A program made the translations under genes and the position numbers. From assembly GCA_951406725.2 (NCBI GenBank), contig OX597822.1:28520001-28584000 (forward strand): a DNA stretch of 64,000 nucleotides. The letters run 5' to 3'. Under the pieces are notes generated by a model. That model saw only the letters and a list, made by a program, of their open reading frames with translations. It made no database searches and had not been told where the DNA came from. Shown here in pieces: positions 7,552-62,567 of the stretch; within the stretch, counting starts at the first letter, position 1, and each line of letters starts with the position of its first letter. The DNA comes from Octopus vulgaris (Eukaryota).

Positions 7552-9594
7552 ATGGAAACTTTTATTCTGATGTGCGTGCTTTCTTTTCTATTGTTCTTAA
7601 ATATTGTATCACATGCCACAGACTTCAACAACTGCAGCCCAGGTTTGTGTTCTGATCCTCCTGCATATGGCGTACCTGAACGTTGTTCGTGCCGCCCGGA
7701 CTGCTACCTCTACAATGAATGCTGTTCTGACAAGATTAATAAAACCACTTCTGATCACAAACAACCCTATCCATCAATATATTACAGTTGTAGAAAGCTT
7801 AGTGATTCATATTATTATCAGTTTGATCGTTGTCCACCTAACCATGATATTACAGAGTATGTGAACAAGTGTGAAAATCCTGACTCAGATGACCAACTAC
7901 AAAATATACCCGCTTTTGGTAAAACTAGTAAAAGATTATTTAGGAACCTATATTGTTCTTTGTGTCATGGAGAGGAATTCATTCTTTGGAATCTTTTATA
8001 TGAATGCAACTTCATCCTTTCTCCAAGCATTGAAAATATATCAAATTATGTCAATGATGGAATATGTACACCAACTCTGAAGCTTCCTTCAGAAGATTTA
8101 GAGAAAAATTTGTATTCCTGTATTCCATATATTTCGAATTGTCCTCAAGATAACAATAGTACGGAACAAAGAATCGCATGTGAATCCGAGGCCATGGCAT
8201 TAATATATTTAGATGAGGAAAAATATTTCATACATACTAAATATAAAGATTATTACTTTTACAAAAACAGAGGTTGTGCCACATGCAACGGGGTTTTTGA
8301 AGTACCGTGTAAATTATTTTATTTTGAAATGCTCGCAAGTCATGTTATTCCACCATTAACGATCCTCTTCAATTATCATACAAAATCCATAACGATAACG
8401 GGTGAACACATCGAAACGGAACATACGCTTCTGCAGTTACCATCGTGTCCAAAACACGCAGTCTACGATATGAATACTAAGGAATGTCGACAAGTTATCT
8501 ACAATCCTCAACTAAACTGTACGATAACAAGATTAAATGAATCTGAGTATCATATTACAAGCGATGGTCTCCTGTATATAAATAAAACTCAACGTTTTCT
8601 AAACCAATCAGAATTCACTCGTGATTCTCAAGGTATAATAAGTATCTGTGTAAACAATGGTACCAATAATATATCAAATATCAATGGTGTATCAAAATAC
8701 TCCATTGTTGAGGGCTATATCACTTTAGTAGGACTAGTAATCTCTATTCCAGCTCTAGCAATCACTATTATAGTCTATCTCTGTATACCTGATCTCCGTA
8801 CCTTACCAGGTAAATTACTCATTAGTCTTTTATCAGCATTGTTTGCAGCTGAGCTTCTCTTTCTTATCTCATCACAAGCCACTACATCTACAGCTCTGTG
8901 TACATCTTTAGCTATAGTGATACATTATTCGTTTCTAGCGACTTTCTTCTGGATGAATGTCATGTCATTTGATGCGTGGTACACTTTTTCGGGATTCACA
9001 CAGCTTCGGAGTAAAGGAAAAGGTACCAAGAGACTTGTATTATATTCTTTGTATGGTTGGATCTGTCCACTTGTAATAGTAACAGTATCACTGATATTTG
9101 AGTATATTCCTGGAAATCATGGACTTTCCCCAGAATATGGAAATGGTATTTGCTGGATTAAAAATGGAAAAGGTCTACTGTGGCTCTTTGCAATCCCTGT
9201 AATGATTATTTTATGTCTTAATTTCGTAGCATTTATCCTCACCACTAGAGGGCTTTATATGGCCAGCAAATTATCTTCAAAATATTTATCGAAACATAGC
9301 AGAAATGAATTTTTTATTTGCCTAAAACTATATCTTGTTATGGGACTAACATGGACATTCGCATTTCTGTATACGTTTACAAGAATTGAAGAATTTTCTC
9401 TATTATTTTGTATTTTAAATTCTTTTGTTGGATTATTTATTTGTGTATCGTTTCTATCAACAAAAATTGTTCATCGCAGTATTCTTCGTAATTTGCACAA
9501 AATTGCAAGATTGCCTACAAAAGAATTTACTGATGTTTCTTCTGCTCCTAAGACAATATCAACGGATGTATCAGCTGAAAGGTCAGTTAACTAA
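7552..9594 (+). CDS. Family-B (secretin-class) Methuselah-like GPCR with SMB-like/Cys-rich ectodomain, 680 aa (receptor 1)
   Basis: Uninterrupted ORF; hydrophobic signal peptide; CSCRPDCYLYNECCSD (somatomedin-B-like); Cys-rich ectodomain; seven hydrophobic helices with LRTLPGK, HYSFLATFFWMNVMSFD, YG..ICWI and MGLTW motifs; no GPS motif seen. Confidence 0.93.
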   Translation: METFILMCVLSFLLFLNIVSHATDFNNCSPGLCSDPPAYGVPERCSCRPDCYLYNECCSDKINKTTSDHKQPYPSIYYSCRKLSDSYYYQFDRCPPNHDITEYVNKCENPDSDDQLQNIPAFGKTSKRLFRNLYCSLCHGEEFILWNLLYECNFILSPSIENISNYVNDGICTPTLKLPSEDLEKNLYSCIPYISNCPQDNNSTEQRIACESEAMALIYLDEEKYFIHTKYKDYYFYKNRGCATCNGVFEVPCKLFYFEMLASHVIPPLTILFNYHTKSITITGEHIETEHTLLQLPSCPKHAVYDMNTKECRQVIYNPQLNCTITRLNESEYHITSDGLLYINKTQRFLNQSEFTRDSQGIISICVNNGTNNISNINGVSKYSIVEGYITLVGLVISIPALAITIIVYLCIPDLRTLPGKLLISLLSALFAAELLFLISSQATTSTALCTSLAIVIHYSFLATFFWMNVMSFDAWYTFSGFTQLRSKGKGTKRLVLYSLYGWICPLVIVTVSLIFEYIPGNHGLSPEYGNGICWIKNGKGLLWLFAIPVMIILCLNFVAFILTTRGLYMASKLSSKYLSKHSRNEFFICLKLYLVMGLTWTFAFLYTFTRIEEFSLLFCILNSFVGLFICVSFLSTKIVHRSILRNLHKIARLPTKEFTDVSSAPKTISTDVSAERSVN

Positions 9595-10337: not shown

Positions 10338-10624
10338 AAGGACATACTGAGTATGTCTACCTGCTGGAAATAACAGACAAAACTCTTATTTAACTTACCA
10401 AAATACACTGATAATAACTACAAAAATCAACAGTCCGAAGGAAAACGTGCTAAGACAATCTCTCAGCATACATTTAAGTATTTGGACTCACATGGACCAG
10501 TTTCTGGACAGGCGTAATTGCCTTAGGAAGGCTGATTTCTATAGTTATTATCGGTGTATTTTGGCGATTTAACTAAGAGTTTTGACTGTTATTTCCAGCA
10601 GGTAAATATACTTGGTATGTCCTA
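10338..10624. mobile_element. MITE-like element with long terminal inverted repeats (about 85 bp)
   Basis: GGACATAC..TACCTGCTGGAAATAACAG..AAACTCTTA..CCAAAATACAC.GATAATAACTA is mirrored at about 10541-10624. Confidence 0.75.
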
Positions 10625-14887: not shown

Positions 14888-14924
<37 letters not shown>

Positions 14925-22622: not shown

Positions 22623-24719
22623 TCAAGGCTTTGTGGAAGGATTCGCAACAGTTTCTGGCCTTTCAAGTGACGACATTCCACACTGGTTAAATTCATACAA
22701 GTTTCGCTTAACGGCAGAGTTGATTGTAGGTACATCCGTTGATTGTGTTACACGAGCAGAAGTCACATCAACAGACTCTTTTGCGGGCAATTTTATAATT
22801 GTTTGCAAATTCCGCAGAATACTGCGACGAATAGTCTTTGTTGATAGAAACGATACGCAAATAAATATTCCAACGAATGAATTTAAAATACAAAATAACA
22901 GAGAAAATTCTTCAATTCTTGTAAACGTATACAGAAATGCGGATACCCATGTAAGTCCCATGATAAAGAATAGTTTTATGCAAACGATGAACTCATCATT
23001 ATTACGTTTTGACAAATATTTCGAAGAAAGTTTACTGCTCAAATAGAGCCCTCTAGCGGTAAGGATAAATGCTATTATATTAAGACATATAATAAACATT
23101 ACGGGGATTGCAAAAAACCATAGTAGACTTTTTCCATTTGTAATCCAGCAAATACTACTTCCATATTCTGGAGAAAGTCCATGATTTCCAGGTGTGTACT
23201 CAAATATCAGTGATACTGTTACTATTACAAGTGGACAGATCCAAGCATACAAGGAATACAATACAAGTCTCTTGGTGCCTTTGCCTTTACTCCGAAGCTG
23301 TGTGAATCCCGAGAAAGTGTGCCAGGCATCAAATGACATGACATTCATCCAGAAGAAAGTTGTTAAAAAGGAATAATGCATGATAATAGCCAAAGATTTA
23401 CACAGCACTGTAAATTTAGTGACTTGTGATGAGATAAGAAAGAGAAGCTCACCTACAAACAGTGCTGATAAAAGACTAATGAGTAATTTACCTGGTAAGG
23501 TACGAAGATCAGGTATACAGAGATAGACTATAATAGTGATTGCCAGAGCTGGAATAGAGATTACGAGTCCCACTAATGTGATATAGCTCCCAGCTACGGA
23601 ATATTTTGATACACCATTGATATTTGATATATTATTGGTACCATTGTTTACACAGATACTTATACCTTGAGAATCACGAGTGAATTCTGATTGGTTCAGC
23701 AAACGTTGGGTATTATTTAAGTAGAGATGACCATCACTAGTAATGTAATACTCAGATTCATTTAATATTGTTGTTGTACACTTTAGTGGAGGATGGTAGA
23801 TAACTTGTCGACATTCCTTAGTATTCATATCGTAGACTGCGTGTTTTGGACACGATGGTAACTGCAGAAGCGTATGTTCCGTTCCGATGTGTTCACCCGT
23901 TATCGTTATGGATTTTGTATGATAATTGAAGAGGATTGTAAGTGGTATAAATGAACCTACTGAAGGATATATTTTGTATTCTACTTCACACGGAACTTCA
24001 AAAATCCCGTTACATGTAGCACAAGGTTTGTTTTTGTATTGATTTAAATGTTCTTGATTTAAATATATTAATGCCATGGGCTCAGTTTCACACGCCATTC
24101 TTTGTTCTGTGTTATTGTTATCCTGAGGACAATTCGAAATATATGGAATACAGGAATACAAATATTTATCCAGATCTTCTGAAGGAAGCGTCACAGTTGG
24201 TACACATGTTCCATCCTTGACGTAATTTGATATATTTTCAATGCTTGGAGAAAGGAAGGAACTGCATTTATATAAAAGATTCCAAAGAATGAATTCCTCT
24301 CCATGACAGAGAGCGCAATATAGGTTCTTATATAGTTTTTTACTTGTTTTACCAAAAGCAGGAATGGATTGCAGTTGGTCATCTGAGTCGGGATTTTCAC
24401 AGTTGTTCACATACTCTGTAACATCATGGTTAGGTGGACAACGATCAAACTGATAATAATAAGAGTCATCAACCTTTCTACAACTATAATATATTGAAGG
24501 ATAGGGTTGTTTGTGATCAGAAGTGGTGTTCTGATCCATGTCAGAACAACATTCATTATAGAGGTAGCAGTCCGGGCGACACGAACAACGCTCAGGTATG
24601 CCATATATGGCAGGATCAGAACACAAAGCTGGGCTGCAATTGTTGAAGAAGTGTGCAAATGATGCATCTTTTGAGAACATTATAAGAGAAATTACAAGCA
24701 ACTGAAATGATGTTACCAT
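22623..24719 (-). CDS. Family-B Methuselah-like GPCR, 698 aa (receptor 2)
   Basis: Intact paralog of receptor 1; ATG at 24719 chosen by alignment (TTTAAAATG context, signal peptide follows); longer C-tail. Confidence 0.93.
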   Translation of the reverse strand: MVTSFQLLVISLIMFSKDASFAHFFNNCSPALCSDPAIYGIPERCSCRPDCYLYNECCSDMDQNTTSDHKQPYPSIYYSCRKVDDSYYYQFDRCPPNHDVTEYVNNCENPDSDDQLQSIPAFGKTSKKLYKNLYCALCHGEEFILWNLLYKCSSFLSPSIENISNYVKDGTCVPTVTLPSEDLDKYLYSCIPYISNCPQDNNNTEQRMACETEPMALIYLNQEHLNQYKNKPCATCNGIFEVPCEVEYKIYPSVGSFIPLTILFNYHTKSITITGEHIGTEHTLLQLPSCPKHAVYDMNTKECRQVIYHPPLKCTTTILNESEYYITSDGHLYLNNTQRLLNQSEFTRDSQGISICVNNGTNNISNINGVSKYSVAGSYITLVGLVISIPALAITIIVYLCIPDLRTLPGKLLISLLSALFVGELLFLISSQVTKFTVLCKSLAIIMHYSFLTTFFWMNVMSFDAWHTFSGFTQLRSKGKGTKRLVLYSLYAWICPLVIVTVSLIFEYTPGNHGLSPEYGSSICWITNGKSLLWFFAIPVMFIICLNIIAFILTARGLYLSSKLSSKYLSKRNNDEFIVCIKLFFIMGLTWVSAFLYTFTRIEEFSLLFCILNSFVGIFICVSFLSTKTIRRSILRNLQTIIKLPAKESVDVTSARVTQSTDVPTINSAVKRNLYEFNQCGMSSLERPETVANPSTKP

Positions 24720-31821: not shown

Positions 31822-32235
31822 GGCGTAGAAGTGGCTGTGTGGTAAGTAGTTTGCTTACCAACCACATGGTTCCGGGTTCAGTCCCACTGAGTGGCACCTT
31901 GGGTAATTGTCTTCTACTATAGCCTCGGGCCGACCAAAGCCTTGTGAGTGGATTTGGTAGACTGAAACTGAAAGAAGTCCTTCGTATATACGTGTGTATG
32001 TATATATGTGTGTGTGTGTTTGAGTGTCTGTGTTTGTCCCCCTAACATCGCTTGACAACCGATGCTGGTGTATTTATGTCTCCGTGACTTAGCGGTTCGG
32101 CAAAAGAGACCGATAGAATAGATACTAGGCTTACAAAGAATATGTCCTGGGGTCATTTTGCTCGACTAAAGGCGGTGCTCCAGCATGGCCACAGTCAAAT
32201 GACTGAAACAAGTAAAAGAGTAAAAGAGTAAAAAG
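31822..32235 (+). mobile_element. SINE family A, full length, inserted into a family B copy
   Basis: tRNA-like head GTGGCTGTGTGGTAAG..GGGTTCAGTCCC, internal (TG)n, (AGTAAAAG)n tail; family B tail resumes at about 32236. Confidence 0.9.
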
Positions 32236-32619: not shown

Positions 32620-34510
32620 ATGTTAAGGAAGTCTGAAGGATATCTCGCTGCTTCAAAAGGAAACAGAAATCCCAAACCACACATTGTTTCTCTGTAGATG
32701 ACTTGAAACTGTATGCCAAGAATATACATGACATAAAAAAGAACCTTGATCTGATTACAACATTCTCAAAGGATATAGGATTGGAGTTTGGTCAGGAAAA
32801 ATCTTGCTATGTGGTCGTGAAAAGAGACTAGCAATATCTCTATCAGTGACATAACTGTTTCCCCTGTATCTGCTGAGGAATGATACAGGTACACGGGGGT
32901 AAACGAAAGCTTCTTACCATCTTACAATGGTACCTTAACAAGACACGTGTCACTAAAGAAAACATGGATTTCGGAACTTTCTGCATTCAATGAATCAGTG
33001 ATCCACAATGTGTTTGCGGTACCAGTACTCATACCGATATTTGAGCTACTTGATTGAACGTTTAATGAAGTCCGAGCTGTTGATGTAAAAACCCGGAAGT
33101 TATGGACCAGTATACATGATTCCCACATCAAAAGCGACGTAGACCATCTCTACTTAAAATGAAAACTAGAGACAGAGGCTTGACATCGATCCAGACTGCC
33201 TTTCAATGTCATATCATATCCCTTCGGCAACATCTTTTAACTATGAAAGTACATCTCTTGACCAAGTTTGCATACACGAGACGGATAACATCATGAGGCT
33301 TGGAAAGCAGCTCCTTCAGCAACATTCCTTGCCTGATAAACTTGAATACAAAGAAGTCGCACAACTCTACCGCAAGGTATCATCGAATGAAAAGATGAGC
33401 ATACATCAGCAGAAGACCATGCATAATTATGTTAGCAGAAAGCTTCAGGGATGATAGTAACACTGATAATCAAAGCAGTCTATTTTTGACCAACAACCGG
33501 ATAGTATGCGTTTGCAATCCAGGAACAGGAAATATCAACCAAATACCTGGTGCACAGAATGGACAGAGACGCAGGGAAAACACCAAAATGGGATAAGCTA
33601 TGCAAACTTTGTTAACACTGAAGACATCACCCAGTTGTACAAAAATGTCATCGCAATATTATCTACCGATGAGATATGATGTTGTAATGATATTCGTCGG
33701 AAGGATAACCCTAAGGCCAAAGAAATAAGAACCCACAGCATGACAGAGGCCAGTGAAAACCTTAGTAAAATGTAGACATAATAGCCCTGACATAGTACTT
33801 TGAGACCGAGAAGAGAAACTGTGTAGTTTCATTTTCTGCCTAGCAGATACGCTTTACTCTTTTACTTGTGTCAGCCATTTGACTGCGGCCATGCTAGACC
33901 ACCACCTTTAGTCCGAGCAAATCGACCTCAGGACTTATTCTTTGTAAGCCTAATACTTATTCTATCGGTCTCTTTTGCCGAACTGCTAAGTCACGGGGAC
34001 GTAAACACACCAGCATCGGTTGTCAAGCGATGTTGGGGGGACAAACACAGACACACAAGCATATACACACACATACATATATACGACGGGTTTCTTTTCA
34101 GTTTCCGTCTACCAAATCCACTCACAAGGCTGTGATAGGCCCGAGGTTATAGCAGAAGATACTTGTCCAAGGTACCACGCAGTGGGACTGAACCAGGAAC
34201 CATGTGGTTGGTAAGCAAGCTACTTACCACACTGTCACTCCTGTGCTTATACAAATAAAAAATTAGAATAGGAAATAAAAATATAAAGAGAAACGGGAAA
34301 TACATACACTGAACTCTTGAGAAATCTACACTTCCTCTACCCAGATTTCAGGCTCATGTTTATACCTGTAATTATTGCGGAACTGTGACATGTAACATAC
34401 TGCCTAAGTACCAATCTTGAGAAATTAGGCTTCTCCAACCAGAAAAGAGAAAGCTGATTCGAAGCCCTCACTGGAACAGTAAAGATTTGTAAAATTTCCA
34501 AAAGTTCATC
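32620..34510 (+). mobile_element. Decayed R4/Dong-like (restriction-endonuclease-type) non-LTR element interrupted by a SINE
   Basis: VDDLKLYAKN..TTFSKDIGLEFG, HIKSDVDHLYL, AIQEQEISTK, PDIVL; many indels. Confidence 0.75.
33853..34246 (-). mobile_element. SINE family A, full length
   Basis: Reverse complement of 31822-32235. Confidence 0.9.
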
Positions 34511-36358: not shown

Positions 36359-36478
36359 TTATATTTATATTAGTTCTATTATTTGTATTTAGGCTCCAAC
36401 TAATGACTTCTCTAATTCTCTAAAAAATGTTTGCTGCAATAATTTGGGCAGAACTAATATTCTGCCGATTATGGGAAA

Positions 36479-36730
36479 ATGAATTATACGGGTTTGAGTG
36501 AACACATCTGGACTATAAAGCATGTGGACACTAAATATGACATTAAATGGTCAATTATTAGTAATGATTCACCATATACCGTTGGATATTCGAAATGTGA
36601 TCTCTGCTTAGAAGAATCATTCTATATCCTTACCTGTAATTTCAGATTATTTAATCCCAGAAACAAATTAGCAGCAAAATGCGCACATTTATTTAGAAAA
36701 GTATTTCAGTATTTTCCAAATAAGGAATCT
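36479..36730 (+). mobile_element. Penelope-like GIY-YIG C-terminal fragment (also at about 57385-57575)
   Basis: GLSEHIW..YDIKWSII..KCDLCLEE..FNPRNKLAAKCAH. Confidence 0.8.
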
Positions 36731-38738
36731 TATTTGGAAATCACGTAGATGAAAGGATACATAAGTTTATCTAGTTAACTTCTGTCGCAAATTTACTTAC
36801 GTTTTAACAAATCTGCATTAATCCTAACTATTATATATTTTTGGTAGGGAGGAAATAATGCAAAATATGGTTAGAATGTATATTTACTTCACACAACATA
36901 CATTGATTAGACTTACGTTAAAATTTCACATAATTTACCAAAATCTATTATAATTCAGAGTTGTAACTGAAATGGTATTGATTAATAGCTTTGGTTTCAT
37001 AATAAAGGTTTTGTAGTTTAGATAGTGATGAAAAAAGGGACATTTTATTCTTCATACCAGTTTATATATATTAGTTACATAACTGGAATACATATGGCTT
37101 CAAATGAAGATTAGAACAGCAACGCTATCTGGACATATACAACACGAGCCGAGACATCAGTATTAATATTGATTTGCTTTTGAGTGAGCTCAATTCTGAG
37201 AAGGGTACAGCATGAAATGTTATGTTTTCTCAACAACATTAGCAATATCAGTTCACGTTTACACAGAAACCCAAACCCGCAGTAACGTTACTTAAAATCT
37301 ACTGATAACGTTTATTGAGAAGCTCAAACTATATCGGTAAAATTCATGGAGATAGCTTTGAAATTTCGTTCAGCATTTGAAATAGCAGCAGGCAAGCTAT
37401 GTTAATCGTAATAAAATGTACTTTTGTACTCACGAAGAATTGCTTTTTATATTTTATTTATCTAGTTTAATATTACAGACATAGAGTACGTAAGTTAAAA
37501 TGCTCATCATTAATGACAGGATATTATGATTCATTTAATGCCGTTATTATACAAGGTATTAGACAACAAAAATATGATATATATTGTGGTTTGAATAAGA
37601 CTTACCGTCAGTGAATAAAAACCTTTATATGAAAGTAATATGACAATTAAAAGTAACGTTTAAAACGATTTGATTTTGCTCTTGTCGAAACAAATTATTT
37701 TCTCATGCAAAAAGTTTATATAAGTTACCAGAATACAAAAAGACTTGTTGAGAGTATTATAAAATTAACGAAATGTTATCAGTATTCTTCTTAACACCTT
37801 CTGATCTCTCCGTAGATAATGTGTTACGGAATGGAAGGTAAAAGCACTACAGCATCTTGATTGCTGGACAAATAAGAGCTGATTAGCAGAGAATTAGTTG
37901 GATAATTAAAAGCGATAAAAATAATAATTAATAGAGTTGGGATACAAATGTGATACACGGGTAATAGTCTCTTATCACACGCACCAGTCTCTCTATAGAT
38001 CCAGTTACATGTGACGCAATAAATGTTTTTCAGAACGTTTCCCAAAACGTTTTTCATTTCATAGTTATTCAATAAGTGTGAGGAAGAGACTATATAAGAT
38101 GGGAATAGAACGAGATTATATAAGTTAGGAAACATATCTCCATAGACATTGCTAGATTAGCAAGTTATGCATGACCATGGGGAGATATGAGTGAGCTCAA
38201 ACTTCATAAACAACCCGCATATTCAAAAATGTTCGGTCAACAGAAATTAAATGGGATACAAGGATAAAAAAAAAGGGATACAATAAAATTACTAACTATA
38301 TAGGGTTTGGAACAAAAAGTGAGTCCGTTCAACAGCTCATGTGGACATAAAAAGTTTTAATATATTGAGTACAGGTGACACTGGCCAAAAATAAACGAAC
38401 AAGTTCCTGAAAGAGATAGGCACGTACCCTTCACACTTGCAAGGCGTTTATCTTATACGAATTCAAATAGAATCTAGAAAACATAACTTTTCTTTTTTGT
38501 TTTTTCATTTCTTTTTTTCCGAATCGGCATTTTAGGAATTTCAGTTCAGAATGTTGTTAATTGTTGAACTTGGTAACCTCAGCTGATTCATAGTCTCGAA
38601 GATCTATAGTCAAAGGTATTCTAGTAAGAACCATCATGTCATTTATTCAGATTTAATATATAATTTATTATCCATTATTTCCATCTTCATTCCACTGACG
38701 ATATTGAGTAACCCACATTGGTTAGCTTGACGATACAC

Positions 38739-40652
38739 CTACGGATTTATATTCGTTGATGTTGTTTTATGAGCGAAATTAACATCAACAGATTCTTTTG
38801 TGGATGTTTTTGTAATTTTTTGCAGATTCTGAAAAATACTGCGTCGAGCAATACTTGTTGATAGAAACGATAAACATATAAGTAATCCAACGAATGAGTT
38901 TAAAATACAAAATAATAGAGAAAATTCTTCAATTCTTGTAAACGTATACAGAAATGCGAATGTCCATGTTAGCCCCATGATAAAGAATAGTTTTACACAA
39001 ATGATAAACTCCAATTTCTTATGTTTTGATAAATATTTCGAAGAGAGTTTGCGTGCCAAATAGAGCCCTCTAGCGGTGAGGGTAAACGCTATGATATTAA
39101 GACATAAAATAAACATTACAGGGATTAAAAAAAACCATAGCAGACTTTTTCCATTTTTAATCCAGCAAATATCTTTTCCATACTCTGGGGAAAGTCCATG
39201 ATTTCCAGGAATATACTCAAATACCAGTGATACTGTTACTATTACAAGTGGACAGATCCAAGCATACAAGGAACAAAATACAAATCTCTTGGTATGTTTT
39301 CCTTTACTTCGAAGTTGTGTGAGTCCTGAGAAAGTGTGACAGGCATCAAATTACACTGTAGATTTAGTGATTTGTGATGAGATAAGAAATAGAAGCTCAG
39401 CTACAAACAGTGCTGACAAAAGACTAATGAGTAATTTACCTGGTAAGGTACGGAGATCAGGTATACAGAGATAGACTATAATGGTGATTGCTAGAGCTGG
39501 AATAGAGATTACGAGTCCCACTAATGTGATATAGTCTCAGCTACGGAATATTTTGATATACCATTGATATTTGATATATTATTGGTACCATTGTTTACAC
39601 AGATACTTATTATACCTTGAGAATCACGAGTGAATTCTGATTGGTTCAGCAAACGTTCGGTATTATTTAAGTAAAGAAGATCATCACTAGTAATGTAATA
39701 CTCAGATTCATTTAATCTTGTTGTCGTACAGTTTAGTGGAGGATGGTAGATAACTTGTCGACATTGATCGGTATTGATATCGTAGACAGCGTATCTTTGG
39801 ACAGGAGGGAGACTGCACATGTCTATTTTCCGTTTGGCCTAATTCATTTCTTACCTTTACAGTATTGGTATAATAATCAAAAAGTATTGTTAGAGGAACA
39901 TATCCTACATTTCCACTTATTTCAAGATAATACACTTTACAAATATCACTGGAAAACCCGTTACATTTGGCACAGTCATTATTTTTGTAAAACACCCTAT
40001 TTACATTATCTACATATATTAACGCCATTGGCTCAGACTCACATGCCACCGTTTGTTCTTTATTACTATCTTGTGGACAACTCGAAATAAATGGAATACA
40101 AGAATACAAATATTTCTTCAAATCTTCTGGAGGTTTCACATCTGGCCAACATCTTTCTTCTTGAGATAATTTGATTATATTTTCAAAGCTTACATCAGAG
40201 TGAGTCAGCATTATATAAAAGATTCCAAAGAATAAATTCTTCTCCATGACACAGAGCACAATACAGGTTTCTATAGAGTATTTTACTTGTTTTACCAAAA
40301 GCGGGTATGTTTTGTAGTTGATCATCTGAGTCAGGATTTTCGCAGTTGTTCACATACTCCGTAACATCATGGTTAGGCGGACAACGGTCAAACTGATAAT
40401 AAGTATAATAATCATCACAAACTTGTACAGCTGTAATATAGTGATGGATAGTATGTGATTAGAAGTGCTCTTATTAGCCATGTCAGAACAACATTCCTTG
40501 TAGAGGTAACAGTCCGGACGACACGAACAGCGTTCCGTGTGCGCGGGAGGATCTGAGCACAAAGCTGGGCTACAGTTGTTGAAGTATTGTGCATATGTTA
40601 CAATATTTGAGAACAATAAACGACAAACTACAACCAACAAAACTGTTTCCAT
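38739..40652 (-). pseudogene. Disabled Methuselah-like GPCR paralog (receptor 3)
   Basis: Full-length homology split across frames; indels near 40450, 40420, 40205, 39795 and 39535; 69-nt deletion of TM3 with TAA at 39351-39353. Confidence 0.88.
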
Positions 40653-40960
40653 TTTCAAAGACATAATGAATAATGCATGAATTGACCTTCCAAGTCCCGG
40701 TGATACTTTGATAATTTACTTCACTGCCGTAAATTTAAAGGTATTACTATGTACTTTGAAATTTAGCAATGTTTCCAAGAGATATAATGATCAATACCTT
40801 CACAAAATTTTCATTCCGAAGCGGAACAATGAAATTAATTTCGGTAGATTTAGATTCTTTGATTTTATTGCTATTAAATGTTGAATGTTCGCGACTCGGC
40901 TACTTAGCGTCACATATATGCATGTATGAATATATATAGATCCGAAGATAGTTGAGGCAT

Positions 40961-41305
40961 CTGCAAAAGAACAAATATTTCATTAAACATACTATTATTG
41001 TAAACATTGATACATATTAAAGCACACACGCATATACACAGATAAACACACACGCATAATATATATATATACAACTTATAAACAAGGGCAAAAGAAAAAA
41101 TTCCAATGCCTAATATGCCGAAAATAGACTTAATCGTCAATAACCATATAATTTATCACTATAAGCACGCATCTAGAAAGCAAGCCGATAGAAATTTCTA
41201 ATAAATTTCGTTATTATCGAATCGGCCCCGATTTCTGAGTTAATTCATTTAGAATTTTCTCGTAATCAGCGATAAATACGATAAGAAAATTAATGAGATA
41301 CTTAC
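40961..41305 (-). other. Candidate 5'UTR intron of receptor 3
   Basis: CAA|GTAAGT ... tttgttcttttgcag|ATG. Confidence 0.6.
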
Positions 41306-41446
41306 TTGTACCCACGGAAGAAGTAAACACTAAGTCCTGTGTACACTTAAGTACCCCAAATATATTCAAAATAGAAATTCAACAGCATTCTTCGAGACAC
41401 GTGTGATTCACTTCGGGACTCATTTTCAGTCCGATCACATTTTTTT

Positions 41447-41471
41447 TTATTTATTATTATTATTATTATTG

Positions 41472-41543
<72 letters not shown>
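41447..41543. repeat. (TTA)n microsatellite (paralogous tract at about 62485-62567)
   Basis: Direct reading. Confidence 0.95.
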
Positions 41544-41544
<1 letters not shown>

Positions 41545-43416
41545 TAGTGTTGTTGTTATACATACATACATACATACAAGCATACGTAATGAAAATAATA
41601 ATAAGTGGATGTCAACACATGAACAAAATAAGAATAAACAAAAACAACAATAAAAGCAAATTACACGAACGTATAAAAACAGAAGATACAAATATTACAG
41701 GCATCCCTCCACCACACACACACACTAACTAAACATAGACGCATATAGAGATATAAGCGAGTGCAAATGAAGACATACAATAGAAATACAAAATGGCTGA
41801 CGGTTAGTAAGGAGAGACACAAATAAGAAAGAAGAAAACAAAGGACCACTGATGCGGTCACAGGAGTGTGACGAAAGAACTCTGGCTGAAATTAGATTAA
41901 GATTAATGTACAAAATAAATATCACTGAAGCAAAATAACACCAAATATATAGTGCGTGTGTTTTTATTGGCTAAACTGGCAAAATGACCATTCCGAAATA
42001 TAACAATATCTGTTTTAACACACGGCTTCACGTAAAAAATCTTGCACAACAGATATATAAACGTACAATACTACGGCTGAAACAAAATAAAAGCAGAGAG
42101 GCGCAACGAAGTAGAAGGATAAATGTTGTCAGTGTCTTACCGCTGTGCATAGGAAAACAGTGATATCATTACAAATAATTAATTGCTTAGTTTTTGCATG
42201 ATAAAGAATATTACTCTTACCAATATCCAAATTTCGCTTCGGTGCTCAGACGTCGCAACAACAGTCGTCGTTACCTCCTAAAGTTAGATGTGAATTGAAA
42301 GCAGGATGGGCACAATGTCATTGAAAGTGATAGGAAAAGAAGAGAGAGAGAGTGAATGAGAACGACAGAGATATCGACAATAAAGTGGAATCAAATGACA
42401 AGTAGCAAAGTGGTCAATATGTAGCTGCCGTTCTCCGGAAGCAATCTAAGAACAATAATACAGCTGAGTCAGAGAGAGAAACAAATGAAAGAATACAGTA
42501 ACATTATCACTAAGAGAGAGTTCACAAGGAGGATATAATAAGACGGATATTCATTAAAACTAGGATGGGACAAATGTCGTTAAAAGAGAGAGGGGTTGAC
42601 GGGCATATCTCCAAGAGAGTGTTAACGAAGGAGAGGTACGAAGACTTGCTAGTATGTGGCAGATCTGTTGAGTAGTAAGCAAAGAACAATGATACGGTGG
42701 TGAGAGAAGGAGAAAAAAGGAAGAGAAAACAGTGTGATCCATATCGAGGATAAATTTGTTAATTTACATGCAATCGTCTATAAACAAACAATGATTGAGA
42801 ATTGTGATGTAGCAAAGATTTCCGCCTACGGCAAATTCTATATTTCTACTGAGACCAGGATGGGTCGTATGGCATTAGCAAGGAGGTGGATGGAGAGGAA
42901 GAGAAATGACAGAGATATCCCCAACAGAGTGGCAACGAATGAGGGGACCGAAGGTCTTCAGTATGTGGCAGCAGTATTGAAGAAGAAAATAAAGAATAAT
43001 AAGGAAAAGAAAAGAAAAAGGGAGAAAACAGTAACATTAACACTAAGGAAGAGATGACAAGGGACAAATTTACAATACCTAGGAAATATTTCAGGAAAAG
43101 TTCCTATTTTTACGGGGAACGTATGTATTAATTTGCATGCAGAACAATATTTTTCTTACCGGCAGGAGAGTTCAGAAGTCGGCAGGAGAGTTCTGTCTAC
43201 AGATGTAGTTAGATTGTTAATGAAAAGAGGAGGGGCAGAATATCATCAAGGGAGTAAGGCCAAGAGAATAAGAGAATGTGTGAACAACGAAGATATTACA
43301 AATAGACGAGCAACTTCTATTGGGATGTCGCAGTTGTGTTGAGGAAAAAAAGACAGAGATAGACAGAGAAAGAAAAGGAGAGAAAGCAGTAATATTATCA
43401 GTGAGAAGGGAGTGAC

Positions 43417-43992
43417 GAGGTGGTGGTGCTGGTGGTAGTGGTGGTGCTGGTGCTGGTGGTGGTGGTGGTGCTGGTGCTATTGCTGGTGGTGGTGCTGGTG
43501 GTGCTGGTGCTAGTGGTGGTGGTGGTGGTGGAGGTGCTGGTGGTGCTGGTGCTGGGGGTGGGGTGGTGTGGTGGTAGTGGTGGTGGTGATGGTGGTGCTG
43601 GTGGTGCTGGTGGTGCTGGTGGCGGTGGTGACGGTGGTGGCGGTGGTGGTGGTGATGGTGGCGGTGCTGGTGGTGGCGGTGGTGGTGCTAGTGGTGGTGG
43701 TGGTGGTGGGGCTGCTGGTGGTGGTGGTGGTGGTGGCGGTGGTGGTGCTAGTGTTGGTGGTGGTGGTGGAGGTGCTGGTGGTGGTGGTGCTGGTGGTGGG
43801 GGGTGGTGGGGTGGTACTGTTGGTAGTGGTGGTGGTGATGGTGGTGCTGGTGGTGCTGGTGGTGGTGGTGCTGGTGGTGCTGGTGCTGGTGGTGGTGGTG
43901 GTGGTGGTGGTGGTGGTGGTGGCGGTGCTGGTGGTGCCGGTGCTGGTGCTGGTGCTGGTCGTCGTTGTTGTTGTCGTCGTCGTCGTCGTCGT
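43417..43992. repeat. G-rich (GGT/GCT)n low-complexity array with an internal higher-order duplication
   Basis: About 575 bp of GGT/GCT/GGC triplets ending in (CGT)n; the motif GGGGTGGTG..GGTAGTGGTGGTGGTGATGGTGGTGCT recurs at about 43560 and 43800. Confidence 0.9.
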
Positions 43993-48190: not shown

Positions 48191-48876
<686 letters not shown>

Positions 48877-49950: not shown

Positions 49951-51647
49951 AGTATGGTATATAAATTTTTCATTTGGTTACAAAATATTAGGATTTCAAA
50001 ATTTAGGTATGATCAGAATGTTATTATTTAAAATACTTAAACATACGGGTAGCACAATGTATACAAGATTTCCCTAGTTCGGAACGGTTATTCGATAAGT
50101 TTTTATTATTCCTATGTTTAAATCAGCCGAAACGTTGTGGTAACAACAAACATGATGACACATATCTGTCCAGTGTAAATAATGTAAACACAAGTTTTCT
50201 TCCTTTCTTAAATTGCCTGGAACCCTATTTTGTATATTTTCGATCCAAAAATGCACATCGGCTTCTCCCTATTGAAATTTCTCAAGAAAATTAACAAAGC
50301 TTCTAGACCAAACTACATATTCACAATTTTAGCAGGTTTTTTTCATTATTTTTTGTTTACGTATGAATAAATTACTGGGAATTCAAACTTACATCATATT
50401 TCAAAATATAATCACAAATTCTCATAACAAGCAATATGTTTTAAAATGCTTTAAAATTGATTCTTCTTTCATTGTTTATTCTTCCACTACCGTTTTCAAA
50501 TCTTAGATCACAGGCAGAAGTTATCGAAAATGGAACGGATTTTCACAAAAGTCCATGCATTGAAGATTAACTTGATAAATCTTATTACATATTGATATTA
50601 ATCTATCCGTTAAGGCAACGAGCTGGCAGAACCATTAGCACACAAGGCAAAATACTTCGCAGCATTTCATCCGTCTTTACATTCACAGTTCAAATTCCGT
50701 CACGACCCCTCCTCGGAAATTGTTACCTTTTTGCCAAAATTTGGAATCAATATTACTCTATTGGTTCTTTCATATTTCCTTTCACTTAGCTACCGATTGC
50801 TCCCAATATCGACCATTTTGCATTTGCATTTGACTGTCTTCTTCTGTGTGTATACCAGTGACCGTATGTACGATCATATATGCATGAAAAATACATATAT
50901 GTGTGTGTATGAGTGTGTGAGTGTATTCGTAAAACTTTATGCATACACATCCATACATATTCACTTATAGACCTAAACATCTATACCAACACATACACGC
51001 ACACACACACACACACCAGCACATACATACATACAAAGATACAGGGCAAGCATGAAGTCTATACACAAGGGAAACATGTCTTACTCATTAATATCGCTAA
51101 TAATGATTGTGTAGAGCGGGTTTCGTCGCTCATCAGATATTAGTTCGTTTCACGTCTTTTTCTGACGTATGATGGAGAAGGTGTACTCAGTGAAAATCAC
51201 AGATGAAAATCATGTTGAAAATGTTATTCTTTAATGTAGTTCAATAATATTATTGAATAATATTATTTTCGCTCATGTATGTAGACTTAACGTTCACACT
51301 TTACATGCATACATGAATAAATAAATAAATAAATAAATAAATTTCTGATTGAACAAACAAGAGAAACATAATTCAGTATATGAATATATCATCTTTTTTA
51401 TTTTTAATCGCAAGAATGTTACAAAAGTTACTCAAAGGCCGAGAGCTTCGTAGGCGGCACATAAAACACTGACTTCAAATCAGAGGACTCGTTACATATA
51501 AAGAGAATATTTCGTGAAGCCTAATATTGGTAGGTCACGTGCATATAATGTAATTGTTACAATAATACTTATTAGTATTTACCCTATGCTTGCTAAAAGC
51601 AGAATATCATCTGCTCCGTCTATGGAATTACGTGTCACTCTATGGGT

Positions 51648-52050
51648 ACTCGTTTACTTGTTTCATTCATTTGACTGCGGCCATGCTGGAGCACCGCCTT
51701 TAATCGAGCAACTCGACCCCGGGACTTATTCTTTGTAAGCTCAGTACTTATTCTATCGTTATCTTTTGCCAAACCGCTAAGTTACGGGGACATAAACACA
51801 ACAGCATCGGTTGCCAAGCAATACTACGGGAACAAACAAAGACACAGAAACATACACGCACACATATATATATATATATACATATATACGACGGGCTTCT
51901 TTCAGTTTCCGTCTACCAAATCCACTCTCAAGGCTTTGGTCGGCCCGAAGCTATAATAGAAGACACTTGCCCAGGGTGCCACGCAGTGGGACTGAACCCG
52001 GAACGATGTGGTTGGTAAGCAAGCTACTTACCACACAGCCACTCCTGCGC
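51648..52050 (-). mobile_element. SINE family A, full length
   Basis: GCGCAGGAGTGGCTGTGTGGTAAGTAGCTTGC head through GCAGTCAAATGA tail. Confidence 0.9.
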
Positions 52051-52308
52051 CGGTTATAAACGTTTCGATATAAATTAAATTCGCTGTGCTATTGGATTCC
52101 TTACTCGCTTCCTTTAATTAATGAGTTTCGCCTCAGTAACTTCCCTTACACTAGCTTCCGTAAATTTACCATTGTTTTTCACTATTAGCTCTAACCAAAC
52201 AGAACACAGATCTTCATTATTTCTTTAGAATCATTCATATTATGACGTACCTTATCCGTTTAGTTATCACTTTACAAGTCGTATTTTTATTATTATTATT
52301 ATTATTAT

Positions 52309-57212: not shown

Positions 57213-57257
<45 letters not shown>

Positions 57258-59651: not shown

Positions 59652-61643
59652 CTAAGGAGTTATATTCGTTGATGTTGTTTTATGAGCGAAATTAACATCA
59701 ACAGATTCTTTTGCGGATGTTTTTGTAATTTTTTGCAGATTCTGAAAAATACTACGTCGAGCAATACTTGTTGATAGAAACGATAAACATATAAGTAATC
59801 CAACGAATGAGTTTAAAATACAAAATAATAGAGAAAATTCTTCAATTCTTGTAAACGTATACAGAAATGCGAATGTCCATGTTAGCCCCATGATAAAGAA
59901 TAGTTTTACGCAAATGATAAACTCCAATTTCTTATGTTTTGATAAATATTTCGAAGAGAGTTTGCGTGCCAAATACAGCCCTCTAGCGGTGAGGGTAAAC
60001 GCTATGATATTAAGACATAAAATAAACATTACAGGGATTAAATAAAACCATAGCAGACTTTTTCCATTTTTAATCCAGCAAATATCTTTTCCATACTCTG
60101 GGGAAAGTCCATGATTTCCAGGAATATACTCAAATACCAGTGATACTGTTACTATTACAAGTGGACAGATCCAAGCATACAAGGAACAAAATACAAATCT
60201 CTTGGTATGTTTTCCTTTACTTCGAAGTTGTGTTAGTCCCGAGAAAGTGTACCAAGCATCAAATGACATGACATTCATCCAGAAGAAAGTCGCTAGAAAC
60301 GAATAATGCATTACTACAGCTAAAGATTTACACAGCACTGTAGATGTAGTAACTTGTGATGAGATAAGAAAGAGAAGCTCAGCTGCAAACAGTGCTGATA
60401 AAAGACTAATGAGCAATTTACCTGGTAAGGTACGGAGATCAGGTATACAGAGATAGACTATAATGGTGATTGCTAGAGCTGGAATAGAGATTACGAGTCC
60501 CACTAATGTGATATAGCTCTCAGCTACGGAATATTTTGATATACCATTGATATTTGATATATTATTGGTACCATTGTTTACACAGATACTTATTATACCC
60601 TGAGAATCACGAGTGAATTCTGATTGGTTCAGCAAACGTTGGGTATTATTTAAGTAGAGAAGATCATCATTAGTGACGTAATACTCAGATTCATTTAATT
60701 TTGTTGTCGTACAGTTTAGTGCAGGATGGTAGATGACTTGTCGACATTTCTTAACTCTCAAATCGTAGATAGCGTATTTTGGACAGGAGGGAGACTGCAC
60801 ATGTCTATTTTCCGTTTGGCCTAATTCATTTCTTACCTTTACAGTATTGGTATAATAATCAAAAAGTATTGTTAGAGGAAAAGGTTCTACTCTGTAAGCT
60901 ATTTCACGATAATTCACTTTACAAATATCACTGGAAAACCCGTTGCATATAGCACAACCTTTGTTTTTGTAAACTTTAAGAAATTTATATATGCCATTTA
61001 CAAGGTAGTCTGTGCTAGACTCCATATATATCAATGCCATTGGCTCAGACTCACATGCCATTATTTGTTCCTTATTATTGTTATCTTGAGGACAATTCGA
61101 AATATATGGTGTACAACTATGCAAATATTTGATCAAATATGATTGAAGCTCTACTGTTGGCCTACATCTATCCTTGAGATAATTTGATATATTTTCAAAG
61201 GTTACATTAGAGATTCTGTCGCAGTTATATAAAAGATTGCAGAGAATGAATTCCTCTCCATGACACAGAGCACAATACAGGTTCCTGTAGAGTCTTTTAC
61301 TTGTTTTACCAAAAGCAGGAATGATCTGCAGTTGATCCTCTGAGTCCGGATATTCACAGTTGTTAACATACTCAATAACATCATGGTTATCTGGACAACG
61401 GTCAAACTGATAAGCATAATAATCACCAGCTTTTCGGCAACTCATAGTTGGGTAGTATGTGATAGAAGAGGTCTTATGAATAATGTCAGAACAGCATCCA
61501 TTGTAGAGGTAGCAGTCTGGTTGACACGAACAACGTTCCGATGCGCCATCTGAACACAAAGCTGGGCTACAATTGTTGAAGTATCCTGCATGTGTTATAA
61601 CACTTGAGAACAAAAGAATGCAAACTAAAAACAATGTTTCCAT
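59652..61643 (-). CDS. Family-B Methuselah-like GPCR, 663 aa (receptor 4)
   Basis: Intact paralog; ATG at 61643 (METLFL) aligns with the starts of the other copies; same domain order. Confidence 0.93.
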   Translation of the reverse strand: METLFLVCILLFSSVITHAGYFNNCSPALCSDGASERCSCQPDCYLYNGCCSDIIHKTSSITYYPTMSCRKAGDYYAYQFDRCPDNHDVIEYVNNCEYPDSEDQLQIIPAFGKTSKRLYRNLYCALCHGEEFILCNLLYNCDRISNVTFENISNYLKDRCRPTVELQSYLIKYLHSCTPYISNCPQDNNNKEQIMACESEPMALIYMESSTDYLVNGIYKFLKVYKNKGCAICNGFSSDICKVNYREIAYRVEPFPLTILFDYYTNTVKVRNELGQTENRHVQSPSCPKYAIYDLRVKKCRQVIYHPALNCTTTKLNESEYYVTNDDLLYLNNTQRLLNQSEFTRDSQGIISICVNNGTNNISNINGISKYSVAESYITLVGLVISIPALAITIIVYLCIPDLRTLPGKLLISLLSALFAAELLFLISSQVTTSTVLCKSLAVVMHYSFLATFFWMNVMSFDAWYTFSGLTQLRSKGKHTKRFVFCSLYAWICPLVIVTVSLVFEYIPGNHGLSPEYGKDICWIKNGKSLLWFYLIPVMFILCLNIIAFTLTARGLYLARKLSSKYLSKHKKLEFIICVKLFFIMGLTWTFAFLYTFTRIEEFSLLFCILNSFVGLLICLSFLSTSIARRSIFQNLQKITKTSAKESVDVNFAHKTTSTNITP

Positions 61644-61952
61644 TTTAAAAGATATAATTAATGATGCATGAATTAACCTTTCAAATCCTAATAGTTCTTT
61701 GATATTTTGCTTCACTGCTGTAATTTTACAAGATCTGACAGGTATTTTTAAAATTTTGCAATGTTTCCTGATGATACAATGACTATTACCTTAACAATAT
61801 TTTCATTCCGAAGCGGGGTAATGAAATTAATTTCGGTAGATTTAGATTCTTGGATTTTATTGGTATTAAATGTTGAATGTTCGCGACTCGGCTACTTAGC
61901 GTCACATATATGCATGTATGAATATATATAGATCCGAAGATAATTGAGGCAT

Positions 61953-62050
61953 CTGCAAAAGAACAAATATTTCATTAAACATACTATTATTGTAAACATT
62001 GATACATATTCAAGAACACACGCATATACACAGATAAACACGCACGCATG

Positions 62051-62109
<59 letters not shown>

Positions 62110-62325
62110 ACTTAAAAACAAGGGCAAAGGAAAAAATTCTAATGCCAAATATGCCGAAAATAACCATATAATTTATCACTATAAGCACGCGTCTTGAAAG
62201 CAAGCCGATAGAAATTTCTAAAAAATTTCCTTATTATCGAATCGGCCCCGATTTCTGGGTTAATTCATTTAGAATTTTCTCGTCATCAGCGATAAATACG
62301 ATAAGAAAATTAATGAGATACTTAC
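61953..62325 (-). other. Candidate 5'UTR intron of receptor 4
   Basis: CAA|GTAAGT ... tttgttcttttgcag|ATG, as in receptor 3. Confidence 0.6.
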
Positions 62326-62490
62326 TTGTACCCACGGAAGAAGTAAACACTAAGTCCTGTCTGCACTTAAGTACCCCAAATATATTCAAAATAGAAATTC
62401 AACAGCATTCTTCGAGACACGTGTGATTCACTTCGGGACTCTCTCACTCTATGAGAATTTTCAGTCCGATCACATATTTTTTTTTATTTA

Positions 62491-62567
<77 letters not shown>

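What the first reader, a model, noticed from the sequence alone, without database searches (positions are those of the whole stretch)
8209..8259. Hypervariable loop 1: length-variable insert between invariant ALIY and YKN..C
Between MALIY and YKNxxCAxCNG the paralogs are unalignable: LDEEKYFIHTKYKDYYF (17 aa, 8209-8259), LNQEHLNQ (8 aa, 24039-24062), VDNVNRVF (8 aa, 39990-40013), MESSTDYLVNGIYKFLKV (18 aa, 60972-61025). All length changes are in frame and the long versions are aromatic-rich. Inference: a CDR-like specificity loop on a disulfide-fixed scaffold.
Basis: partly seen in the sequence, partly recalled or inferred. Interest (0 to 1): 0.8.

Follow-up and report, generated by a model that had tools for sequence, protein, structure and literature searches.

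The report
Variable loop in octopus Methuselah-like receptors
Four neighbouring octopus receptor genes (one broken) differ in the length of a loop, predicted to be a hairpin tip on the outside of the cell, that is inherited unchanged like any other gene sequence and likely helps, together with a faster-changing loop next to it, to give each receptor its own ligand preference.

Summary
They lie in tandem, intronless octopus Methuselah-like (class B) GPCR genes, part of a published octopus-specific expansion (PMC6408891, group 4). The copy at 39990 is a pseudogene. The loop is the predicted tip of a beta-hairpin in the second of two homologous Cys-rich ectodomain repeats, and it has the widest length range of any anchored interval among octopus paralogs.

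'CDR-like' overstates it. The loop is germline and paralog-specific: identical in O. sinensis counterparts of all three intact genes, and gap-free in contigs from two other runs. The two long forms are homologous, not unalignable. Across six ortholog pairs it changes at 23% of residues, like the C-terminal tail (19%); only the g4 group shows an excess.

The strong signal is the next loop (8311-8355), at 48%. Gene conversion homogenises the scaffold around both loops, and two loop-1 types occur with different loop-2 types. Best reading: a tolerant hairpin tip, resized by replication slippage, that likely contributes with loop 2 to paralog-specific ligand recognition. No ligand is known and loop proximity was not measured.

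The parts
7552..9594 (+). g1: intronless Methuselah-like class B GPCR, 680 aa
   Evidence: ORF; PF00002 E=1.6e-31; 98.8% to O. sinensis P0169, 90.3% to O. bimaculoides P0001 = A0A0L8GFU5
7633..7731 (+). Somatomedin-B-like Cys knot (about aa 28-60 of g1), below Pfam cut-off
   Evidence: PF01033 E=0.045, 14.5 bits against cut-off 23.1; same weak or full hit in 11 of 12 distant homologs scanned
7813..8007 (+). Cys-rich repeat 1 (aa 88-152); its hairpin is length-fixed
   Evidence: hhalign to repeat 2 prob 99.1; P120-N132 interval 11 residues in 23 of 23 octopus rows
8113..8319 (+). Cys-rich repeat 2 (aa 188-256), which carries loop 1
   Evidence: repeat-1 profile hits 123 of 124 repeat-2 segments at E<1e-3 against 3 of 124 shuffled
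8209..8259 (+). loop 1 of g1 (aa 220-236, 17 aa): predicted hairpin tip closed by I218-Y219 / F236-Y237
8311..8355 (+). loop 2 of g1 (aa 254-268): the fastest-substituting ectodomain segment tested
   Evidence: 42 of 88 residues changed over six ortholog pairs, against 195 of 1595 scaffold and 55 of 283 C-tail; pLDDT block 62
8362..8496 (+). gene-conversion tract shared by g1 and g2 (aa 271-315), directly after loop 2
   Evidence: runs of 22 and 23 identical polymorphic sites, reached by 0 of 2000 permutations; g1 and g2 group together (85/89) apart from their O. bimaculoides orthologs in this segment but with them in the TM tree
8716..9441 (+). 7TM domain of g1, secretin/adhesion type
   Evidence: PF00002 aa 389-630; Z 28.3, rmsd 2.5, 249 aligned to ADGRG2 7xkd_R
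22623..24719 (-). g2: intact paralog, 698 aa
   Evidence: 99.3% to O. sinensis P0002; ortholog P0003 = A0A0L8GGP4
24039..24062 (-). loop 1 of g2 (8 aa); holds an exact 11-nt direct repeat at 15-nt spacing
   Evidence: p=0.001 against codon shuffles; the O. bimaculoides ortholog has an 11-residue tandem duplication here
38739..40652 (-). g3: pseudogene and patchwork (frameshifts near 40450, 40418, 40200, 40176, 40158, 39795, 39534; 69-nt deletion at 39355)
   Evidence: segment affinities
39990..40013 (-). loop 1 of g3 (8 aa): P0012-type 5-aa loop plus three residues, with an 8-of-9-nt tandem repeat
   Evidence: the repeat alone is not significant, p=0.41 for its exact part
39894..39938 (-). loop 2 of g3: P0006/g4 type, unlike the loop 2 of P0012
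   Evidence: 81% to P0006 over aa 248-268; 12.3 nonsynonymous and 0.7 synonymous differences from g4 between difference-free flanks
59652..61643 (-). g4: intact paralog, 663 aa
   Evidence: 99.4% to O. sinensis P0175
60972..61025 (-). loop 1 of g4 (18 aa): predicted extended hairpin with an Asn-Gly turn
   Evidence: DSSP strands at I205-M207, L214-V215, I218-Y219, K223-Y225; block pLDDT 55
60876..60920 (-). loop 2 of g4
   Evidence: 8 of 15 and 11 of 15 residues differ from P0176 and P0006
60576..60728 (-). membrane-proximal ectodomain part of g4 (aa 306-356) resembling Drosophila Methuselah residues 122-187
   Evidence: top hit of 48,161 chains, 1fjr_A, Z 5.0, rmsd 1.7, 51 aligned; a weak Z

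Best explanation
The insert is a germline, paralog-specific loop in tandem octopus Methuselah-like GPCRs, predicted to be a beta-hairpin tip in the second Cys-rich ectodomain repeat, whose length was likely changed by replication slippage and which likely contributes, with the faster-evolving loop 2, to each paralog's ligand preference. Shown: (a) the genes are an intronless tandem cluster of class B receptors matching the published octopus group 4; (b) loop length falls in a few discrete classes, with the 5-residue form in most octopus paralogs; (c) loop types are stable across orthologs in the g1 and P0180 lineages and diverge fast only in the g4 group; (d) conversion tracts homogenise the scaffold after loop 2 and in the 7TM region; (e) two loop-1 types occur with different loop-2 types. 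Predicted: hairpin-tip geometry. Inferred: one lengthening in the ancestor of the g1 and g4 types (possibly a 12-codon duplication), a deletion in g2, later small duplications in P0003, g2 and g3; conserved flanks serve as exchange points; the ligand is a peptide or protein met in suckers, skin or axial nerve cord, by analogy with Drosophila Methuselah, and signals through a nearly common 7TM core. Loop 1 is most likely a secondary, partly relaxed element; loop 2 is the better candidate for the main specificity site.
For: Family, synteny and expression of the O. bimaculoides counterparts: group 4, Scaffold69694, same order and orientation; sucker 0.79 for the g1 ortholog, axial nerve cord 0.79 and 0.83 for g2 and g4 types. 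Length classes and repeat-1 control. Hairpin in two models. Duplication traces: 11-residue tandem copy in P0003, 11-nt repeat in g2. g4 trio 94-100% identical in the SMB, repeat-1, 190-219, 237-247 and TM segments but 50-78% in loop 1 and 48-67% in loop 2; loop 1 7/18, 4/18, 9/18 against 28/323, 11/324, 31/323. g1-type long loop kept in two paralog lineages and both species with 2/17 and 3/17 changes, which suggests constraint. Conversion tracts. Methuselah ectodomain is the top fold hit for the proximal part and holds a ligand site for peptides (PMC2288678, passage).
Against: Over six ortholog pairs loop 1 changes like the C-tail (23% vs 19%, p=0.5); 9 of its 16 changes come from one pair of uncertain orthology, and the other five give 7 of 52, close to the scaffold's 12%. 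pN/pS on 7-16 codons is 0.7-4.5 and uninformative. In distant homologs other intervals vary more in length (sd 7-8 against 3.0). Loop 1 lies outside the part that resembles Methuselah. The published test found omega 0.306 and no selected sites for group 4. Three named octopus paralogs (P0015, P0018, P0185) lack the repeat-2 motif altogether. The 12-codon duplication is weak (p=0.024, post hoc, related sequences; lag 6 scores higher). One of the two loop re-pairings is in a pseudogene. No ligand, binding or expression data were produced here; loop1-loop2 distance was not measured.
Confidence: 0.52

Rival explanations
1. Relaxed surface loop with no role in specificity: an indel-tolerant hairpin tip in AT-rich DNA drifts in length and sequence, and looks hypervariable only because the flanks are constrained and homogenised by gene conversion.
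For: Ortholog change rate equals the C-tail's; slippage traces explain the lengths; low pLDDT; distant homologs tolerate varied lengths here; conversion tracts flank the region.
Against: g1-type long loop retained with few changes in two lineages and both species; Y-12/K-5 pattern kept across g1 and g4 types; excess in the g4 trio against directly flanking 100%-identical segments; the homologous hairpin of repeat 1 does not vary.
Confidence: 0.33
2. Cell-identity code: the loops serve homophilic or paralog-selective adhesion between neurons or sucker cells, like clustered protocadherins, rather than binding a soluble ligand.
For: Tandem single-exon genes with divergent N-terminal ectodomain and converted C-terminal part, the pattern described for fugu protocadherins (PMC1852091 passages); axial nerve cord expression of counterparts; 7TM closest to adhesion GPCRs among solved structures.
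Against: Only a few tens of paralogs at most; no cadherin, Ig, GAIN or GPS Pfam hit; no binding test.
Confidence: 0.09
3. True CDR-like diversification: the loop is diversified somatically or is highly polymorphic within species, as an immune-type repertoire.
For: Discrete long and short forms; fast change in the g4 trio; one minor contig with a 2-nt insertion in the loop (depth 5.7 of 23.5, run X12).
Against: Loops identical to O. sinensis counterparts in 3 of 3 intact genes; single gap-free contigs span the g1 loop in 2 of the 4 runs laid (2 and 24 other letters; the other two runs did not cover it); intronless genes with no segment or recombination-signal structure seen.
Confidence: 0.04
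4. Assembly artefact: the length differences and the g3 patchwork come from mis-assembly of near-identical repeats.
For: g3 carries many small indels and switches affinity along its length.
Against: All three intact loop types recur exactly in an independent annotation and the g1 loop in independent contigs. Only the g3 patchwork lacks independent confirmation.
Confidence: 0.02

Closest known systems
Octopus-specific Methuselah-like GPCR expansion, group 4 of Ritschard et al. 2019 (PMC6408891)
   Same: The O. bimaculoides counterparts of g1, g2 and g4 types are listed as group 4 on Scaffold69694 (14 genes), in the same order and orientation.
   Different: That paper reports omega 0.306 and no selected sites from trimmed alignments; in the parts read it does not discuss ectodomain loops or show conversion tracts.
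Somatomedin-B-bearing Mth/Mthl receptors outside arthropods (de Mendoza et al. 2016, PMC4768249); ectodomain family PF28443/DUF8401
   Same: SMB-like knot, Cys-rich ectodomain and class B 7TM; homologs carry PF28443.
   Different: The 17-19 residue hairpin forms mark one octopus subclade; most octopus paralogs and the median distant homolog have a short turn. The residue range of PF28443 was not seen.
Drosophila Methuselah (PDB 1FJR; PF06652)
   Same: Class B 7TM; proximal ectodomain part superposes on Mth 122-187 (Z 5.0, rmsd 1.7, 51 residues).
   Different: No PF06652 hit at E up to 1; the SMB knot and both repeats, including loop 1, found no match in Mth.
Clustered protocadherins (regional gene conversion, PMC1852091)
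   Same: Tandem paralogs with a homogenised C-terminal part and a divergent N-terminal recognition part.
   Different: Unrelated fold; a GPCR; no shared constant exons; tracts here are short and sit within one domain.
Antibody / TCR complementarity-determining regions (recalled)
   Same: Length-variable hairpin loop between fixed anchors on a disulfide-bearing scaffold.
   Different: No Ig fold, no gene segments, no somatic diversification seen; variation is between germline paralogs.

Membership tests
Mth/Mthl GPCR family (7TM-defined) | secretin/adhesion-type 7TM (PF00002) | tested here: met
   E=1.6e-31, 6e-30, 1.4e-28 for g1, g2, g4
Mth/Mthl GPCR family (7TM-defined) | 7TM groups with the Mth/Mthl clade in a metazoan tree | not tested
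   No tree with insect Mthl was built; orthologs are placed there by PMC6408891 and carry Mth-like names
Octopus group 4 expansion | orthology to listed group-4 genes in tandem on Scaffold69694 | tested here: met
   TM tree pairs g1 with A0A0L8GFU5 (99/97) and g2 with A0A0L8GGP4 (89/90); g4-type pairing weaker (83/62); order and orientation agree
Arthropod Mth-ectodomain receptors | Methuselah_N domain (PF06652, ten cysteines) | tested here: not met
   No PF06652 hit at E up to 1; only 51 residues superpose on 1FJR; 24 ectodomain cysteines counted in g1 (sequence)
SMB-bearing Mthl receptors | N-terminal Somatomedin-B domain | tested here: inconclusive
   E=0.045, below the gathering score; CxC-x3-C-x5-CC pattern conserved
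Adhesion GPCRs | GAIN domain with GPS cleavage motif before TM1 | tested here: inconclusive
   No GPS or GAIN Pfam hit and none among the listed fold hits of the ectodomain; absence from a fold list does not exclude
CDR-type variable loops | immunoglobulin fold | tested here: not met
   Predicted topology is small Cys-rich alpha/beta repeats; no Ig Pfam hit
CDR-type variable loops | somatic diversification within an individual | not testable with these tools
   Only assembled contigs were laid
CDR-type variable loops | variation far above relaxed sequence between close relatives | tested here: not met
   Loop 1: 16/69 against C-tail 55/283, p=0.5; 0 changes to O. sinensis counterparts; elevated only in the g4 group
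CDR-type variable loops | several variable loops clustered into one binding surface | not testable with these tools
   Model coordinates are not returned
CDR-type variable loops | loop determines ligand specificity | not testable with these tools
   Needs ligand and chimeras

The most novel reading that the evidence does not exclude
Octopods keep a combinatorial receptor repertoire in their arms and suckers: orphan Methuselah-like GPCRs whose two adjacent ectodomain loops form one binding site under diversifying selection and are re-paired between tandem genes by gene conversion across the conserved CxxCNG joint, all signalling through a homogenised 7TM core. This would be a germline, GPCR-based recognition code for prey, microbes or self, missed by the published whole-gene selection test.
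Probability: 0.2. Interest if true: 0.72.

Novelty: new variant of a known kind. Interest (0 to 1): 0.38.

Why it matters
The gene family and cluster are published, but they are orphan receptors whose O. bimaculoides counterparts are expressed mainly in suckers, skin and axial nerve cord, and were reported to be under uniform purifying selection. Locating the change in two short ectodomain loops between converted scaffold gives concrete positions for chimeras and ligand screens, and suggests the earlier trimmed, whole-gene test missed a local signal (mainly loop 2). For loop 1 alone the result is modest: variable hairpin tips in expanded receptor families are common.

Tried and rejected
No whole genome is held for this window, so further paralogs came from protein databases. 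Codon tests were limited to the four window copies; loop 1 gave 7-16 codons a pair and no usable pN/pS; loop 2 of g4/g3 gave Fisher p=0.066. The g3/g4 flank control (upstream 100/1845 = 5.4%, downstream 206/1279 = 16%, loop 1 9/24 plus a 30-nt indel) was set aside as a neutral yardstick because g3 is a patchwork. Neutral expectations use assumed distances (0.07-0.2), not measured dS. No RNA holder was listed, so expression and RNA editing were not tested. Runs X2 and X6 did not cover the loop. Sequence search of PDB: the 60 best of 173 matches shown were all GPCRs, matched almost entirely over the 7TM. Foldseek gave no E<=0.001 hit for the ectodomain; no fold match was listed for the two repeats at Z>=5, which does not show a new fold. 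Atlas hits scored under 0.9 and serve only to name PF28443. A GPS/tethered-agonist reading of the LTILF motif was dropped: it lies about 120 residues before TM1. P0012 was considered as the same locus as g3 and rejected (67% identity over aa 23-92). The 12-codon duplication origin of the long loop is kept only as a lead. No complex prediction was run, as no partner is known. Earlier scan notes held nothing. The Methuselah structure paper was not available, so its binding-site position is not used.

Full report
OBSERVATION. The motif pair occurs four times in the window and the four inserts translate exactly as stated. Three copies lie in intact single-exon ORFs: g1 7552-9594 (+, 680 aa), g2 22623-24719 (-, 698 aa), g4 59652-61643 (-, 663 aa). 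The fourth, g3 (about 38739-40652, -), is split over several frames, has at least seven frameshifting indels against g2 and a 69-nt deletion, and stops after 100 codons.

WHAT THE GENES ARE. All three intact proteins carry the secretin-family 7TM (PF00002). All 22 ectodomain homologs in the first search are Octopus proteins, many named Mth-like, most with PF28443, which the Atlas names DUF8401. g1, g2 and g4 are 98.8, 99.3 and 99.4% identical to O. sinensis proteins. The O. bimaculoides counterparts A0A0L8GFU5, A0A0L8GGP4 and A0A0L8GFV0 are group 4 of Ritschard et al. 2019, an octopus-specific Methuselah-like expansion of 45 sequences in two species (PMC6408891; main text parts 1-4 of 6 read). 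Its supplementary table puts them among 14 group-4 genes on one scaffold in the same order and orientation as here, with 0.79 of expression in suckers for the g1 ortholog and 0.79 and 0.83 in axial nerve cord for the g2 and g4 types (file 2 part 1 and searched rows, file 3 searched rows; file 1 was only term-searched and may bear on the selection tests). The paper found omega 0.306 and no selected sites for this group, on trimmed alignments. De Mendoza et al. 2016 (PMC4768249, parts 1-2 of 3) describe non-arthropod Mthl receptors as lacking the Mth ectodomain, some with Somatomedin-B domains.

ANATOMY. The ectodomain has a weak SMB-like knot, then two homologous Cys-rich repeats, aa 88-152 and 188-256 (hhalign 99.1%; 123 of 124 segments against 3 of 124 shuffled), then a small sheet and a proximal part whose best fold match among 48,161 chains is the Drosophila Methuselah ectodomain (Z 5.0, rmsd 1.7, 51 residues; weak). 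Two AlphaFold models (g1 aa 23-645, pLDDT 85.7, pTM 0.58; g4 ectodomain, 85.8, pTM 0.80) close the insert with short strands at IY and at the residues before KN. It is therefore a predicted hairpin tip, with block pLDDT 55 in both; in g4 the long form extends the hairpin around an Asn-Gly turn. Loop 2 (aa 254-268, after C253) is the next low-confidence stretch (62 and 64). Coordinates were not returned, so exposure and loop-loop distance are unmeasured.

LENGTH VARIATION. Among 24 octopus rows (including near-identical counterparts) the Y219-N239 interval is 7, 10, 19, 20 or 21 residues, the widest range of 24 intervals; the same hairpin in repeat 1 is 11 in 23 of 23. In 95 distant rows its sd is 3.0, less than several linkers (7-8), so it is not the family's most variable interval outside octopus. 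Most octopus paralogs have the short form. Long forms of g1 type and g4 type are homologous (p=0.002), which points to one lengthening and a later loss in g2 (inferred; the trees do not resolve the order). Slippage traces: an 11-residue tandem copy in P0003, an exact 11-nt repeat in g2 (p=0.001), and an 8-of-9-nt repeat in g3 that matches its three extra residues over P0012 but is not significant alone. A 12-codon duplication as the origin of the long form is only suggestive (p=0.024, post hoc).

SEQUENCE VARIATION. Loop 1 is identical to the O. sinensis counterpart in 3 of 3 intact genes. I laid 4 of the 24 listed runs on g1: in two, one gap-free contig spans both loops (X3, 362 nt, 2 other letters; X12, 315 nt, 24 other letters); X2 and X6 did not cover it; X12 also has one minor contig with a 2-nt insertion; contigs drop rare variants. 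Over six ortholog pairs (window or O. sinensis against O. bimaculoides; gap columns not counted) changes are loop 1 16/69, loop 2 42/88, ectodomain scaffold 195/1595, TM 124/1488, C-tail 55/283. Loop 1 exceeds scaffold (p=0.01) but not the C-tail (p=0.5); loop 2 exceeds both (p=5e-15, 6e-7) and loop 1 (p=0.002). Nine of the 16 loop-1 changes come from g4/P0174, whose orthology is weakly supported; the other five pairs give 7 of 52. Among the three recent g4-type paralogs loop 1 differs at 7, 4 and 9 of 18 and loop 2 at 8, 11 and 7 of 15, against 3-10% in the rest of the ectodomain; this comparison is with constrained scaffold, not neutral sites. DNA tests on loop 1 are uninformative. Between g4 and g3, loop 2 has 12.3 nonsynonymous and 0.7 synonymous differences between difference-free flanks (p=0.066).

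GENE CONVERSION. Runs of identity at 508 polymorphic columns exceed permutation for g1/g2 at aa 271-288 and 291-315 and g4/g3 at 267-303 (0 of 2000 each), and g4/g3 at 484-545 and 591-641 (1 of 2000). In the 269-388 tree g1 and g2 join each other (85/89), whereas in the TM tree each joins its O. bimaculoides ortholog. g3 matches P0012 at 84-100% in the segments around loop 1 (153-219, 237-247) and P0006 at 81% in loop 2, switching at CNG; the g1-type loop 1 occurs with two unrelated loop-2 types (g1/P0001 and P0004/P0016). The same pattern, a converted C-terminal and a divergent N-terminal part, is described for fugu protocadherins (PMC1852091, passages).

MECHANISM. Shown: tandem class B receptors, discrete germline loop classes, local excess of change, conversion tracts. 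Predicted: hairpin tip. Inferred: slippage resizes the tip, conserved flanks serve as exchange points, and loops 1 and 2 tune recognition of a peptide or protein ligand, as the Drosophila Mth ectodomain holds a ligand site and binds peptides (PMC2288678, passages), while a near-common 7TM signals. I give this 0.52, pure relaxation 0.33, an adhesion code 0.09, somatic or allelic CDR-like diversity 0.04, artefact 0.02.

NOVELTY. The family and cluster are known. Eight literature searches (open-access library only, listings seen, four papers opened) showed no description of these loops or of conversion tracts in the cluster. The antibody comparison is from recall.

Noticed in passing
window 8311-8355 (g1), 60876-60920 (g4), 39894-39938 (g3): Loop 2 changes at 48% of residues between orthologs, also in paralogs whose loop 1 is short (10/14 and 9/14); a stronger candidate for positive selection than loop 1.
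   Followed up: partly
window 36362-42772 and 57254-64000: Segmental duplication holding g3 and g4; upstream flanks only 5.4% divergent while the N-terminal ectodomain is 17.5% and TM3-end 1.3%.
   Followed up: partly
window 39355: 69-nt deletion in g3 TM2-3, followed by a stop; downstream of it g3 is 98-99% identical to g4, possibly a recombination junction.
   Followed up: partly
window about 8650-8730 (g1 stalk): A 6-residue Asn-rich insertion marks this subclade (C366-G394 interval 27 against 21 residues) and is near-identical among all four copies.
   Followed up: no
window 53056-54294 (-): Reverse-transcriptase fragment (PF00078, E=6.6e-14), probably a decayed LINE.
   Followed up: no
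window 31822-32222, 33855-34246, 51647-52051, shorter copies at 14895, 26909, 47197: Dispersed repeat of about 400 bp, 83-87% identical, SINE-like or MITE-like.
   Followed up: no
window 10339-10623 and 48367-48876: Self-inverted repeats; the second also scores as a 246-nt tandem pair beside an (AT)n run.
   Followed up: no
window 43419-43959: Long GGT-type microsatellite that produces several spurious ORFs.
   Followed up: no
P0015, P0018, P0185: Octopus paralogs that have lost the repeat-2 motif, and so the whole hairpin; P0185 (A0A0L8GFC5) is listed as mainly skin-expressed.
   Followed up: no
P0007, P0023, P0171, P0183: Database models with doubled ectodomain parts, probably fusions of neighbouring tandem genes by the annotation.
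   Followed up: no
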